64,000 nucleotides of DNA from a bacterium (GTDB lineage: Bacteria > JAHJDO01), in NCBI GenBank assembly GCA_043824255.1, contig JBDRTG010000040.1:1-64000 (forward strand), read 5' to 3'. This document shows positions 30,001 to 39,000 of this stretch, piece after piece; position 1 is the stretch's first letter; every line of letters starts with the position of its first letter. Made by a program: the position numbers.

Positions 30001-33000
30001 ACCCTGCTTCTGTTTTGTATGATGGAATGATATCAGCAGAAAAAACCAGAAAGGATGTTGTGTTAGTTGATACAGCCGGCAGATTACATACAAAAACAAA
30101 TCTAATGGAAGAAATGGAAAAGATGAACAGGGTAATATGCAAAAATATACAACCATCTAATATTGAAGTGTTATTAATGATAGACTCTACAGCAGGACAT
30201 AATGCTGTGTATCAGACAAGGATTTTTTTAGAGAATCTGGGAGTTACAGGCATAATGTTAACAAAGTTGGATGGCACAGCAAAAGGAGGCATAGTTATTG
30301 CTATTGAGGACGAATTAGAAATACCTGTGAAACTTGTTGGTATAGGAGAGGGAATAGATGATATAGAGAATTTTGTGCCTGCTGACTTTGTAAAGGCAAT
30401 ATTATATGAATAACAGAGCAAACAGATATATTGAAACAATACTGATATTTCTAGCAATATTTAGTGTATGGCCGGCTGTTTTTAGAATAGATAATATTTA
30501 TTTTAAAGTCGTCATGTATGTGTTTTTGGTTGTTATGGCAATTATTTTTTTTAAAAGAATAAGAAGAATTAGAGCATATATGAGTGAACATTCAAATTTT
30601 AAAAAGAAAAAAGTAAGACATTCAAAGAAAAGCGATTGACTAGTATTTAAAATATATGTTAGTATTTCGCAATGAAGAAGTGTAAATTCGAAGCACGAAA
30701 TACGAGAAAATTATTAATTCATTGAAAATTAAAAATTCAGTCTTTTTTTTCTGTTATATAACTCTGTTGATCGTGATATCCTTTTCCACAATTTATAGTG
30801 ATAATCTAAATCTAACACAAATTTCAGAACAGGTAGACGCGCAATATATAAAGACTATAGTTTCTGATTTAGCTAATCTTGGATCTAGGGTTCCTGGTTA
30901 TCAAGGTAATGAGGAAGCTTCAAAATATATAGAAAATATTTTTCAAAAGATTGGGCTTGAGAATGTAAAAAGCGAGAATTTTTCAGTCACAGTTCCGATA
31001 GATAAGGGAGCTTCTTTAGTTATTTCCAATACTAATAAAGAGCTTTTGCTGTATTGTTTATGGCCGAATCTTATCAGAACTCCCACTCTTCCATCAGTTG
31101 GTATGAGGAGCCAAGTAATTGATGGAAAAACAGGAAGCTTTGAGGATCTTAACGGCAAGACTATTCAGGATAAGGTTGTCTTACTTGATTTTAACTGTGG
31201 AAATAGATGGCTCGATATTTCAATGCTTGGAGCCAAGGCGTTTATTTTTATAGAGCCAGAGGATACAACGCGTGTTGAAGCTGAAAAGAAGTATCTGAAT
31301 CTGCCATTAAATATACCAAGATATTGGATATCCGGGCAGGATGGGCTTTATCTCAGAGGATTAATAAAAGAAAGTGATGAGAAGTTATTAGATGTTCATC
31401 TTAAGGCAAAGATGGATTGGGAAAGAAAGGTTACCAAGAATGTGCTTGGATGGATTTCTGGAAGCGATTCTGAACTCAAGAAAGAAGTTATAGTTATAGA
31501 GGCATATTATGACAGTATCTCTGTTGTGCCTTCTATAGCACCTGGAGCAGATAGTGCGTGCAGTATAGCTGCTCTTATTCAAATAGCAAAGATTCTCCGT
31601 AACAACCCTCCTTCAAGAACAGTTCTGTTTTTAGCTACATCCGGACATTTCTTAGAGCGACGTGGAATAGATGCCTTTTTACAGGCCCATTGTAGATGGG
31701 AAGAGCCGTTTAAAAGCAAGATTACAGACCCAATGGATATAAAACTTTTCTTGTGTATAGATTTGTCAAGTCACAATAATGAGTTAGTAATATATCATGA
31801 TATAGATACGGATAAAAACCTTGGATATTTTGCTAGTTTTGGTAAAACATTTATGTCTTTTGCAACTGAAATTGGGAGAATATTTAATAAATCCAGAGAC
31901 ACTGTTCTAATCAATGGCATTAGCCCGGAAAAGGGACTGAATATAGATTCAATAACTGCTGGGAAGATTAATACAGATGCGGGCATAATAGGAGTCTGTG
32001 GAATTCCTGCGCTTTGTTTTATAACTGCACATGACAGCAGAAGATTGGTAGATACACCATTGGATAGACTGGAAACTGTTGATTTCAAAAATCTCCTTAC
32101 CCAGGTTAATCATATTAGCTGTTTATTTTATATGGTATTGAATAAAAAAGAACTTTTCCCTGATATCAGGGCGAAGTTCAAGGATAATTTATGTACTTTG
32201 AAAGGTAGAATAGTAACTTTTGATCCTAGAAAAAGCTTTGTGCCTGATCAGCCTGTTGCAGGGGGGCTAGCTGTTTTGAAACTACTTAATATGACCACGG
32301 AGGTCTTTAAGGGCGTGAGACCAGAGTTGATAGAACTGACTGACAAAAATGGCGCATTTGAGATGTCCAGAGTTGGAGGAAACTGTCGATTAGAAGCATA
32401 CTCTTTGAACGCTGAATCTGGGGATATAGTCTATGCTCCTGATATGGGTGTTTACGGAGATGAAATGTATCCAATAGAATTTAAAATTGATTGGAGACTT
32501 GTCGAACATACTATTGTTCTGTTTCCATGTATAGCCACTAATGTTTATGAATTATTAGATCCAAGATATTTGGCACAGCTTGATAATATCGATGTATTTG
32601 AAGAAGGAAATAGTATCCCTTCTTCATATGGGTATTCATTCATAAAGGTAAAACCTTGGGATTGGACGTCTTCTATGGAAACATACGGGGTGGTTTATTC
32701 CTCTCCAAATACACGTATAAAGCTTGCTTTTGGAGCAGGACCTCTTGGAATGCGACTGCTGTTGTTAAATTCAAAAGACGCGGAAAATAAAATTCATTCT
32801 GAAGGCGATGGGTTTTTGATATCTAAGGATGGAACAATAGGAAATACTTCGTTTCAGGCAGCAAAGGATATGCTACTTTTAAACCAGTTTAGAATGGAGA
32901 ATCTGGAAAAGTATGGAATATCGAATGATAGGCTTTGGCATTTACATAAGAAAGCGGAACAAGCTCTGCAAAAAGCTAGTCAGGCTAAAGAGAATAAAAA

Positions 33001-36000: not shown

Positions 36001-39000
36001 ATTTCTCTTTGCTGGCTTTGTCCTACCGTTTTGGGTAATGGCAGGAGGTTTTATAGGCTCTATTTTAGCTAATGTTGTTGGGAATCCCATTTTGCACAAA
36101 TTTGGATTAATTCCACATTGGACGGCAGGTATGGATGTAAGGCAAACAGTTATAGCAACAAGAATGGATTTCTGGATAAGTATTACAATTGGACTTGGTA
36201 TTGTAGTAGCTCTTATAGGTATAGGTGGATTAGTAATGAGTATAATAAAAAAGAAAAGAAGCCAAGGAGTCAATAAGACAGTAGTAGACAATTACAGACC
36301 TCCAAAGGGTAGAGGAGATATTCCTATATGGGTGGCTCTAGGTATCTGGATATTTGCAACCATAGGATATATTTTGCTTTGCCATAAACTTGTTCCTAGC
36401 TTTCCAGTATTATTATTAGTATTGTTTGGCTTTATTCTGACACCGCTTCTCTCGTATATATCAGCAAGACTTTTTGGTATAGCAGGTATGCCAACAGGTG
36501 TTTCATTCCCGTATCTTAGAGAAGGGATATTCATTAAAAGTGGATTTTCTGGGGTAGCTATATGGTTTGCACCAATACCATTTTTTAATGTAGGTGGATA
36601 TACACAAAAGTTTAAAGAACTTGAATTAACAAGAACAAAGCTGAGCAGTCTGATAAAGGCTGAGCTGTTCTCTTTTGTTATTATGGCATTTTGCAGTTTT
36701 CTTTTTTGGGAAGTAATATGGCGGATGGGTCCGATTCCTGCTGCAGCTTATGCATATATAAATAAAATGTGGCCTCTTACAGCAACGTTTCAGGCATTAT
36801 GGGTTTCCACAACAATTAAAGGAGGAAATCCATGGATGCTGGAAGCTATTAAATTATCCAATGTTACATGGAGCATGGTAGCTGGATTAGGAGTGTTTGG
36901 TTTAATAAGTATTTTAAAATTACCTATTACGCTTTTTTACGGAATAATTGTAGGGATAACTGGTTGGTGGCCGCATCATATAATTCCTATGTTTATTGGC
37001 GCCCTATTGGGCAGATTCTATTTTGCTAAGAAATTTGGTGAGAAAAGATGGAGATCGTTTACGCCATTACTGGCTGCAGGTTATGCTTGTGGAGTTGGAT
37101 TGATAGCTATGGTATCAATAGCCATTGCGCTTATTTTTAAATCAGTGTCACAGATTATATTTTGAATGAGAGGAATGTCGAAGAAGGAAAGACTTTTAAT
37201 GTCAAGACCAATCAGTAATGAAGCAGTAAGTGCGAAAAAATTCGACAATGATGAATTAGAAATTACTATATATAGAAAGAAGACAAAATTAGTGATTTTA
37301 TTATCAAAGTTGTTTAGATTACCTGAAACCAGAAAGATTATTTTAGATAAAATAGGCGCTTGTGTGTGGACATTGTGTGATGGAAGCAAAACCGTAAATG
37401 ATATAATAAAAGTATTTAGTAGGAAGTATAGCTTGGGCAGAGAAAAGGCAGAAAGATCGTTCCTTGTATATTTAGAGCAATTAGTACGTAGAGGGCTTAT
37501 AGCAATCGCAGCGCCTAAACAGGAGAAAATCTAATGACGGATCAAAAAGAGAAGATTGGAAAGCAAGTAATTCTTCCGCTAAGTAAAGCGGTTGAAATAA
37601 GTGTAAAAAGTATAAAAACAAGGCTGGGACGTTCTATGATAACAGCAAGCGGCATAGTGCTGGCAATAGCGTTTTTAATGTCTATCTTTGTGTCTGGTTC
37701 TATAAATAAGGCATTGCTTGAGAAAGGTTCTGTGGAAGTCAGGGTTCAATTACAGAACACGGGCGGAGAAGGAGAAGAACAGGGTAAGCAAATATGGCTT
37801 GTGGTATTATCACTCATGGTTTGTGTTGTTGGAATCGCAAATGCAATGTTAATGTCAGTTACTGAGAGATACAAGGAAATAGGAACAATGAAGTGTCTTG
37901 GAGCTCTGGATAAATTTATTATTAAATTGTTTCTGCTGGAGTCAGGTTTTATGGGATTATTTGGTTCAATTGCAGGCGCATTATTAGGTGGGTTGCTTAT
38001 GACTATTGTATCAAGTATAAATTATGGATTAGAGGTTATTACTAAGTTTCCAATAATTAGTTTTCTATATTATTTTGTAATTGCGGTAATTTTGGGCACA
38101 GTATTAGCTATTATAGGAGCTATATATCCTGCTTATACTGCTGCTAGAATGGTTCCCGCTGACGCAATGCGCTCGGAAATTTAATAAAAGGAAAATTGAT
38201 AATTAATAATTGCTGCTTAAAGCGGCTGATATGGGGGTAGATTATAATGGCTGAAGAAAATGTTGTGAGAACAAGAAATGTTAAAAAAGTTTTTATAATG
38301 GGTGATCTTTCTTTAGAGGCGCTAAAAGGGATTAATCTAGAGATAAAAAGAGGCGAATACATCTCTATAATGGGCCCTTCAGGCTCAGGTAAGTCCACCT
38401 TATTCAATATGATAGGAGGACTTGATAAGCCAAGTGATGGTAAAGTTTATATAGATGAGGTGGATGTTGCTCAATTAGATGCGTATGAATTAGCATGGCT
38501 TAGGTGTCGAAAGATAGGGTATATATTTCAAACCTTTAATTTGATTCCTGTTATGACAGCTTTAGAGAATGTTACTTTGCCAATGACTTTTGCAGGAATG
38601 TCAACAGATGACTCAATAGATAAGGGAATAAGACTTCTTACAATGGTAGGATTAGGAGATAGGATTCAGCACAAACCAATTGAATTATCAGGCGGACAGC
38701 AGCAAAGGGTGGCTGTGGCAAGAGCCTTGGCAAATGACCCCGCTATTGTTCTAGCAGATGAACCAACAGGGAATTTGGATTTAAAAACAGGTAAAGAGAT
38801 CATAGACCTTCTGCGCAAGATGAACAAAGAGCAAGAAGTTACTATTATTTCTGCTACGCATGATTTAAAGATGCTGGATGTTTCTGATAGAGTTTTCTGG
38901 ATTCGTGATGGGAAAGTAGAAAGAGTTGAAAGACGTGCCGATCTTGATCTTAATATTGGCACTGTTGAGGGAGAGTAGCAAATTAATATTTTCGTGATAT

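What a model noticed while it worked through the whole genome (the two positions that open the first line are those of the whole stretch)
30773..38978. A 1,465-aa MacB/FtsX-type ABC permease with a catalytically dead M28-PA (transferrin-receptor/nicalin-like) ectodomain, [...]
g01392 joins an M28 peptidase plus PA domain, whose zinc and catalytic residues are replaced (YYDS for HxD, GAES/GADS, SGH for AEE) as in transferrin receptor and nicalin, to a C-terminal FtsX-type permease. It is followed by an OPT/YSL transporter, a stand-alone PqqD/RRE protein, a small FtsX permease and an ABC ATPase; the giant-permease + OPT pair is widely conserved, an undescribed peptide sensing or uptake machine.
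Evidence so far: Pfam/NCBIfam; profile hits aminopeptidases, nicalin and TfR; model pLDDT 91, VIA Z 26.8 to TfR1 over 401 residues, 29.6 to Aeromonas aminopeptidase; substitutions conserved in 24 members; OPT identity of g01393; giant gene beside the OPT gene in 34 of 42 loci of 7 kb or more, small FtsX in 12, PqqD in 3.
(Added by a program. Inside this text positions count along the whole contig: contig position 1 is position 1 of the stretch shown here. "Call 12" and the like, gene names such as g00115 and contig names such as C1 are that model's own, and its searches are not shown. The text may have been shortened before it was handed on; [...] marks where a part breaks off. The agent that wrote the report below was given it as the finding of a first reader that could run no searches.)

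Follow-up and report, generated by a model that had tools for sequence, protein, structure and literature searches.

The report
Shared ATP motor for swappable carriers
These genes encode the core of an unstudied membrane machine of uncultured bacteria and some archaea, in which one ATP-driven motor most likely powers a set of interchangeable nutrient carriers encoded elsewhere in the genome.

Summary
The operon is real. The giant gene probably starts at 30722 (1,482 aa, with a signal peptide). Its M28 site is dead in all relatives examined, and the next gene has the YS1/OPT fold (Z 21.3). DUF6785 and the giant occur in exactly the same genomes: 19 of 401 and 32 of 251, none discordant. Copy numbers are tiered: one mini-FtsX, 1-7 giants, 1-5 OPT, up to 49 DUF6785. 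Three genomes carry in-frame giant-DUF6785 fusions. Best reading (about 50%): a type VII ABC motor drives OPT-fold carriers, with DUF6785 as exchangeable specificity subunits for small catabolic substrates. The logic is that of group II ECF transporters, with unrelated folds. Peptide substrates have little support. The scan noted this gene cluster before in six other genomes; eight paper searches, five aimed at this system, found no description.

The parts
30406..30639 (+). 77-aa membrane microprotein, conserved upstream of the giant gene in several lineages; function unknown
   Evidence: found in 15 of 74 giant loci, often followed by a TPR gene that is not at this locus
30722..35170 (+). Giant permease, 1,482 aa: signal peptide, dead M28-PA domain (about 30-480), unassigned region (486-790), 3 extra TM helices, FtsX TM1, MacB-type periplasmic domain, FtsX TM2-4, cytoplasmic C-terminal domain
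   Evidence: C-terminal domain model pLDDT 90.1 with weak helix-grip-like matches, Z at most 7.8
35174..37165 (+). OPT1: 663-aa OPT/YS1-fold polytopic membrane protein, distant paralogue of DUF6785/DUF6784
   Evidence: Model pLDDT 92.4; YS1 Z 21.3; 33 of 76 relatives hit PF03169; hhalign to DUF6785 probability 99.4, 573 columns
37166..37534 (+). Stand-alone PqqD/RRE-fold protein, 122 aa; common accessory subunit
   Evidence: PF05402 E 1e-10; orthologue in 25 of 36 giant-bearing genomes
37534..38184 (+). Mini-FtsX, 216 aa, 4 TM helices with only about 35 residues between TM1 and TM2 (no periplasmic domain); inferred second half of the ABC membrane dimer
   Evidence: PF02687 E 2e-18; one match in each of 39 of 39 and 12 of 12 giant-bearing genomes; 0 of 32 controls
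38247..38978 (+). LolD/MacB-type ABC ATPase, 243 aa, with Walker A, signature, Walker B/D-loop and H-switch intact
   Evidence: directly behind mini-FtsX in 30 of 30 loci
38994..40097 (+). GAF-GGDEF diguanylate cyclase; a neighbour in this genus and a few other loci, probably not a core part

Best explanation
A modular, ATP-powered importer. Two copies of the ATPase, the mini-FtsX and the giant permease form an asymmetric type VII ABC mechanotransducer (inferred from folds and strict co-occurrence). It has no pore of its own and instead does work on OPT-fold elevator carriers in the same membrane (inferred). OPT1, encoded next to the giant, is the resident partner. DUF6785/6784 proteins, scattered over the genome in up to dozens of copies, dock as exchangeable specificity subunits, probably as OPT1-DUF6785 pairs like the YS1 dimer (inferred). 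Cargoes are probably small catabolic substrates such as sugars, sugar acids and related organics (inferred from neighbours, modest support). The dead M28-PA head is a structural or cargo-capturing lid, not an enzyme. The C-terminal domain, PqqD and the U330 protein of other lineages act as cytoplasmic adaptors or regulators (speculative). Shown here: folds, dead site, co-occurrence, copy-number tiers, gene fusions. Not shown: binding, direction, energy coupling, substrate.
For: Identical genome sets for DUF6785 and the giant: 19 of 401, of which 10 of 392 lie outside the genus, in 9 families; and 32 of 251 within one patchy phylum; no discordant genome. The dependence also holds without linkage: G000's four copies lie on other contigs. 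Copy tiers: G361 has 25 DUF6785 matches, 1 giant, 1 OPT1, 1 mini-FtsX. G049, G052, G069 and G075 have 38-49 DUF6785, 6-7 giants, 3-5 OPT1 and 1 mini-FtsX. In-frame giant-DUF6785 fusions with linkers of about 15-35 residues in G052, G049 and G075. Complete operons holding all parts in L273 and L275. OPT1 and DUF6785 are homologous. All 4 G000 copies lie in sugar-catabolic clusters against 5 of 20 control positions (p 0.012). Differences among them are enriched in segments matching the YS1 pocket (20 of 89 against 74 of 546 sites, p 0.036). Two archaeal genomes also carry the parts, which argues against a universal outer-membrane role.
Against: No type VII ABC in the papers I saw is an importer; those described extract or expel cargo or regulate enzymes (PMC12646458, Discussion). 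YS1 itself is proton-driven and needs no ATPase (PMC9691689). Catabolic enrichment around DUF6785 was not significant in G361 (18 of 76 against 10 of 75 genes, p 0.14; 11 of 19 against 7 of 20 loci, p 0.20). Many copies sit beside housekeeping genes. The G000 copies are 89-92% identical and two share one cassette, so they are not independent. The pocket segments and family lists were chosen after I had seen some of the sequences. In the phylum of G240 most genomes are 1:1 and linked, so co-transfer alone can explain that co-occurrence. The three fusions are from one lineage and may be one event. Giants and OPT1 are themselves multi-copy in some genomes, so the motor is not a single fixed unit.
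Confidence: 0.5

Rival explanations
1. The DUF6785/OPT1 carriers are ordinary proton-driven importers, and the ABC complex is their obligatory assembly, gating or resetting factor rather than the energy source of each transport cycle (loosely like nicalin-containing membrane-protein biogenesis complexes, recalled).
For: Explains the same strict co-occurrence and copy tiers. YS1 is proton-coupled. Dead M28 domain with a nicalin hit. One weak NOMO-domain hit, E 0.09 in 1 of 41. The operon follows ftsY in this genus.
Against: A permanent giant-DUF6785 fusion fits a lasting complex better than a transient chaperone. The ftsY neighbourhood is not conserved in most loci. The NOMO hit is at chance level.
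Confidence: 0.2
2. Peptide uptake or sensing: the pseudo-peptidase binds a peptide, the OPT protein imports it and the PqqD/RRE protein receives it.
For: M28-PA, OPT and RRE folds all have peptide-binding relatives. The PqqD orthologue is widespread. A few peptidases (M55, M32, S15) occur beside DUF6785 copies.
Against: One invariant binding head cannot explain up to 49 diverging carriers. G000 copies lie beside a fucosidase, CBM proteins, a sugar-binding protein and sugar oxidoreductases. PqqD was not found in 11 of 36 giant genomes.
Confidence: 0.12
3. Export or envelope work: as in MacB, LolCDE and YbbAP, the ABC extracts a membrane-bound molecule and hands it to the dead-peptidase head, with the OPT-fold proteins acting as flippases or exporters.
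For: This is what characterised type VII systems do (PMC12646458 abstract and Discussion). Best hits of the permease and ATPase are MacB, LolC/E and LolD.
Against: No MacA, TolC or LolA-type gene was recognised among the recurring neighbours (judged by clustering, not a targeted search). It occurs in archaea. Expansion of DUF6785 in catabolic surroundings suits import.
Confidence: 0.1
4. A sensory complex in the manner of BceAB-BceS: DUF6785 proteins are receptors and the ABC relays occupancy to the cytoplasm, for example to the neighbouring diguanylate cyclase.
For: BceAB has a membrane-intrinsic partner. A GAF-GGDEF gene follows here and in L277. The C-terminal domain is cytoplasmic, conserved and weakly helix-grip-like.
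Against: The GGDEF neighbour is confined to few lineages. No kinase or regulator recurs across the loci.
Confidence: 0.06

Closest known systems
Type VII ABC mechanotransducers (MacB, LolCDE, FtsEX, YbbAP-TesA, BceAB-BceS)
   Same: LolD-type ATPase; 4-TM FtsX units with a periplasmic domain after TM1; asymmetric membrane halves; a hydrolase-fold domain on the outer side as in YbbAP-TesA; a membrane partner as in BceAB-BceS (PMC12646458, Discussion).
   Different: The hydrolase-fold domain is fused and dead. One half lacks a periplasmic domain. There are three extra TM helices and a cytoplasmic C-terminal domain. The obligatory partners are OPT-fold carriers.
Group II ECF transporters
   Same: One ATP-driven module serving many integral-membrane specificity subunits (PMC7755397, passages); here both linked 1:1 and scattered many-to-one layouts occur.
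   Different: No shared folds: the motor is FtsX/MacB-type, not EcfAA'T, and the exchangeable units are 640-aa OPT-fold proteins, not small S-components. Exchange is inferred from genomes only.
OPT/YSL family (PF03169; barley YS1, PDB 7wsr)
   Same: Fold (Z 21.3 over 551 residues), hairpin and scaffold layout; YS1 is a dimer with an elevator-like mechanism (PMC9691689).
   Different: 13% identity. Two diverged paralogue families (OPT1 and DUF6785/6784) that were never found without the ABC parts in the genomes searched, whereas YS1 is a stand-alone proton symporter.
M28 pseudo-peptidases (transferrin receptor, nicalin)
   Same: M28 plus PA fold with lost metal ligands, anchored in a membrane.
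   Different: Closer in profile score to active bacterial aminopeptidases, so the loss is probably independent; here the domain is fused to an ABC permease.

Membership tests
Type VII ABC (MacB/FtsX) | LolD/MacB-type ATPase with intact motifs | tested here: met
   TIGR02211 E 3e-69 (below its cut-off), motifs read from the sequence
Type VII ABC (MacB/FtsX) | FtsX 4-TM unit with periplasmic domain between TM1 and TM2 | tested here: met
   Giant: PF02687, MacB and LolC hits, PF12704 in many homologues. Mini-FtsX has the TM unit but only a short loop.
Type VII ABC (MacB/FtsX) | Two FtsX units and two ATPases assemble and transmit force | not testable with these tools
   Inferred from co-occurrence; needs a structure or biochemistry
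Active M28 peptidase | HxD, bridging Asp, Glu-Glu, Asp and His metal and catalytic residues | tested here: not met
   First His is Tyr/Phe in 112 of 113; Glu-Glu is replaced by His plus His/Phe/Tyr; last His is Asp in 112 of 113; only one Asp ligand is kept
OPT/YSL (PF03169) | OPT fold | tested here: met
   Z 21.3 to 7wsr, 551 aligned
OPT/YSL (PF03169) | Pfam family score for this protein | tested here: inconclusive
   No hit for P0002; 33 of 76 relatives hit at E up to 0.01, best 5e-18
OPT/YSL (PF03169) | Proton coupling through core aspartates (YS1 Asp446, Asp490, Asp494) | tested here: inconclusive
   No residue-level alignment to YS1 was obtained; a few conserved acidic columns exist in both families
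ECF transporters | EcfT, EcfA/A' and S-component folds | tested here: not met
   The parts are FtsX, LolD-type ATPase and OPT folds
ECF group II (works like) | Few motors, many scattered specificity subunits that depend on them | tested here: met
   Genomic level only:
ECF group II (works like) | Physical exchange of subunits on one motor | not testable with these tools
   Needs co-reconstitution as in PMC7755397
RiPP RRE (PqqD) | PqqD fold | tested here: met
   PF05402 E 1e-10
RiPP RRE (PqqD) | Precursor peptide and modifying enzyme in the cluster | tested here: inconclusive
   No modifying enzyme among recurring neighbours; ORFs under 70 aa were not searched for precursors

The most novel reading that the evidence does not exclude
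A previously unknown class of primary transporter: a type VII ABC mechanotransducer that uses ATP to drive secondary-carrier (OPT-fold) elevators, with DUF6785 proteins as a swappable library of up to about 50 specificity subunits. It would be an independent invention of the ECF group II principle and a main nutrient-uptake route of Latescibacterota, Ratteibacteria and other uncultured lineages and of some archaea.
Probability: 0.4. Interest if true: 0.92.

Novelty: categorically new. Interest (0 to 1): 0.82.

Why it matters
If true, it joins two transporter classes thought separate (ABC motors and proton-driven elevator carriers) and gives type VII ABC systems an importer role. It would assign a function to DUF6785/DUF6784, which fills up to 49 loci per genome, and make its copy number and neighbours a readout of what uncultured scavenging bacteria eat. 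This window is a good test case because motor, giant and OPT1 lie in one 8-kb operon and only four near-identical DUF6785 copies have to be added. Even under the main rival, an obligatory ABC partner for an OPT family would be new.

Tried and rejected
1) Re-wired metal site (His309/Asp444 as swapped ligands): rejected. The HMM register puts His309 at the catalytic Glu, position 310 is Phe here, the acidic residue at 277 is replaced in several relatives, and L273 lacks both His309 and Asp444. 2) Complex prediction (OPT1 with DUF6785) was not available, so no binding score exists. 3) C-terminal domain: no PDB profile hit, no Atlas hit, Foldseek E at best 1.6e-3, VIA Z at most 7.8 to Aha1/SRPBCC/KA1 folds; a common arrangement only. 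4) Region 486-790: no credible PDB or Pfam hit; not folded. 5) U330 partner: no Pfam hit, only unnamed Atlas clusters, not found in G000, which is 87% complete. 6) OPT1 profile and P0007 gave no sequence hit to YS1. 7) Expression: one RNA library held 0.11 of the words; short contigs at 99% identity or more touch the giant, the OPT1/PqqD junction and the ATPase; contigs cannot show transcription and no silent control was laid. 8) Promoter and terminator counts equal the shuffles. 9) Catabolic enrichment in G361 was not significant; G219 had 20 of 51 such neighbours but no control. 10) A locus scan with the OPT1 alignment could not run. 11) Papers: searches gave 0 hits; one listing on a stress transcriptome; one search listed 20 of 28 type VII papers, none with 'OPT family'; one search listed 15 of 32, none with DUF6784, FtsX-like permease or peptidase M28; one chloroplast review. 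These were seen as listings only. No supplements were read, and subscription journals are mostly not in the library, so a mention there cannot be excluded.
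Full report
1. What is in the window. Five coupled + strand genes run from 30722 to 38978, preceded by a 77-aa membrane microprotein gene and followed by a GAF-GGDEF gene. Hydropathy and family hits give this order: signal, M28-PA domain, an unassigned region (486-790), three TM helices, FtsX TM1, a MacB-type periplasmic domain, FtsX TM2-4 and a cytoplasmic C-terminal domain. The C-terminal domain models well (pLDDT 90.1) but matches helix-grip-like folds only weakly (Z at most 7.8).

2. The peptidase is dead. Aligned to active aminopeptidases 2ek8 and 6hc6, the first metal His is Tyr, the bridging Asp motif is shortened and changed, the Glu-Glu pair is His-Phe, and the last His is Asp (the roles of these residues are recalled from M28 enzymology). 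In 113 full-length homologues the first His is kept once and the last never, and more distant giants agree. My idea of a re-wired metal site failed. Profile scores are higher to active bacterial enzymes than to nicalin or TfR, so the loss is probably independent.

3. The second gene has the OPT fold. It has no family hit itself, but 33 of 76 relatives hit PF03169, and its model (pLDDT 92.4) matches barley YS1 at Z 21.3 over 551 residues, far above the next row at 6.4. YS1 is a dimeric, proton-coupled, elevator-like carrier whose pocket is formed by the TM1-H1 loop, TM2, TM9, H6 and H7 (PMC9691689; passages and section 8 read).

4. Neighbourhoods. Of 80 giant loci (a sample rich in Latescibacterota), 74 had at least 2.5 kb downstream. 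OPT1 was adjacent in 64, some OPT-fold gene was present in 72, a second OPT-like gene in 35, PqqD in 33, an unknown 330-aa protein (U330) in 29, a TPR protein in 16, the microprotein in 15, and mini-FtsX in only 6 (profiles were built from these same loci). Whole-genome searches resolved the last number. The mini-FtsX orthologue gave one match in each of 39 of 39 giant genomes, with the ATPase behind it in 30 of 30 loci returned. It was in 8 of 8 genomes of this genus and 0 of 32 others, and in 12 of 12 further positives including two archaea. OPT1 was in 22 of 22. The PqqD orthologue was in 25 of 36, with one weak hit in 13 controls. This window is one of the few places where motor and giant share an operon.

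5. The missed partner. The second OPT-like family is DUF6785 plus DUF6784, homologous to OPT1 over 573 columns (probability 99.4). G000 has four copies, 89-92% identical, all on other contigs. In one sample of 401 genomes DUF6785 and the giant were found in the same 19 (9 in this genus; 10 of 392 others, in 9 families), and 382 had neither (only the top 2-3 candidates per genome were scored). Three of the ten duplicate genomes already seen through loci. In the phylum of G240, the same 32 of 251 genomes had both, and 219 had neither. Most of those are 1:1 and linked, so that set does not separate function from co-transfer, and kin are not independent. In the phylum of G042, 48 of 51 had 1-10 DUF6785 matches (the giant was not searched across that whole set). 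A Bathyarchaeota and a Thermoprotei genome have giants, DUF6785-like and OPT1 genes.

6. Copy tiers and fusions. G361: 25 DUF6785 matches (one partial), 1 giant, 1 OPT1, 1 mini-FtsX. G219: 16, 3, 3, 1. G374: 15, 3, 3, 1. G049, G052, G069 and G075: 38, 48, 42 and 49 DUF6785; 7, 7, 6 and 7 giant C-terminal domains; 5, 5, 3 and 5 OPT1; one mini-FtsX each. Copies within a genome diverge to about 27-33% identity and often form lineage-specific clades (127 sequences, midpoint root). In G052, G049 and G075 one giant continues in frame, through about 15-35 residues, into a whole DUF6785 protein (2,128-2,301 aa open frames). A fourth region checked, L339, showed no fusion. A fusion of this kind points to work in one complex, though all three come from one lineage.

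7. Substrate clues. All four G000 copies lie among sugar-catabolic genes (alpha-L-fucosidase, Gfo/Idh/MocA, DUF4838, CBM4/9, DUF1559 pilins, a sugar-binding protein, a GntR/LacI regulator, a racemase-like enzyme), against 5 of 20 control positions (p 0.012). The classification was mine and post hoc, and two loci share a cassette. In G361 the enrichment was not significant (18 of 76 against 10 of 75, p 0.14; 19 of its 25 loci examined). In G219, 20 of 51 neighbours were of such families, with no control. Many copies in the phylum of G042 sit beside an amidase-family gene and uxaC. Among the G000 copies, amino-acid differences are enriched in segments matching the YS1 pocket (20 of 89 against 74 of 546, p 0.036), synonymous ones are not (p 0.22); the segments were picked after seeing the alignment.

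8. Mechanism. Most likely (0.5), the ATPase pair, mini-FtsX and giant form an asymmetric type VII mechanotransducer that drives or resets OPT-fold elevators, with OPT1 resident and DUF6785 exchangeable and specific. This is the logic of group II ECF transporters, in which different S-components share one module (PMC7755397, passages), built from unrelated folds. Against it: characterised type VII systems extract, expel or regulate rather than import (PMC12646458, abstract and Discussion), and YS1 needs no ATP. Rivals: ABC as assembly or gating factor for proton-driven carriers (0.2), peptide uptake or sensing (0.12), export or envelope work (0.1), signalling (0.06). No complex prediction could be obtained, so physical contact rests on co-occurrence and the fusions.

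9. Novelty. The parts belong to known folds, but I found no described system that couples a type VII ABC to OPT-fold carriers. Searches: (listings only); two searches served to find comparison papers. No supplements were read. The scan had noted the gene cluster in six other genomes, including the second OPT-like gene and archaeal occurrence. The exclusive co-occurrence, the copy tiers and the fusions were tested here. Verdict: real, undescribed in the library searched, function inferred; interest 0.82.

Noticed in passing
window 22188-25204: Tandem duplication of about 1.5 kb (73% nucleotide identity): a beta-propeller-like gene plus a hydrolase-like gene, whose first copy (23208-23717) is short. 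Labels are from reading the sequence.
   Followed up: partly
window 27586-28292: Two small overlapping genes that look like a nucleotidyltransferase/HEPN toxin-antitoxin pair (recalled, no scan).
   Followed up: no
window 28297-30413: An EtfA-like gene with an N-terminal ferredoxin part and no adjacent EtfB (recalled), then ftsY (SRP54 family), which overlaps the microprotein gene.
   Followed up: no
window about 41000: GC skew switches from positive to negative where the genes converge, as expected near a replication terminus.
   Followed up: no
window 40101-45694: LptF/G-like pair, Mla-like genes with an ATPase carrying an extra N-terminal domain (43586-44719; recalled labels), and tRNA-Arg and tRNA-His.
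   Followed up: no
G000 whole genome; L126, L127, L176: Twelve DUF1559-like pilin N-termini in a 2-Mb genome; such genes flank DUF6785 copies in G000 and G387.
   Followed up: partly
P0008-P0043 (811-1083 aa OPT1 relatives): Some OPT1 proteins carry large inserts near the C-terminus, with beta-propeller (Reg_prop) or PDZ hits.
   Followed up: partly
L259, L278, L279: Giants of about 2,500 aa with long inserts inside the PA and M28 domains; L339 holds an open frame of over 3,500 aa ending in a giant.
   Followed up: no
L320:4751-7858: An archaeal 1,035-aa FtsX protein that resembles a giant without the M28-PA head, right after OPT1.
   Followed up: no
L044:17189-18184 and relatives: U330, an unknown protein of about 330 aa between OPT1 and PqqD in many lineages; no Pfam family, only unnamed Atlas clusters.
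   Followed up: partly
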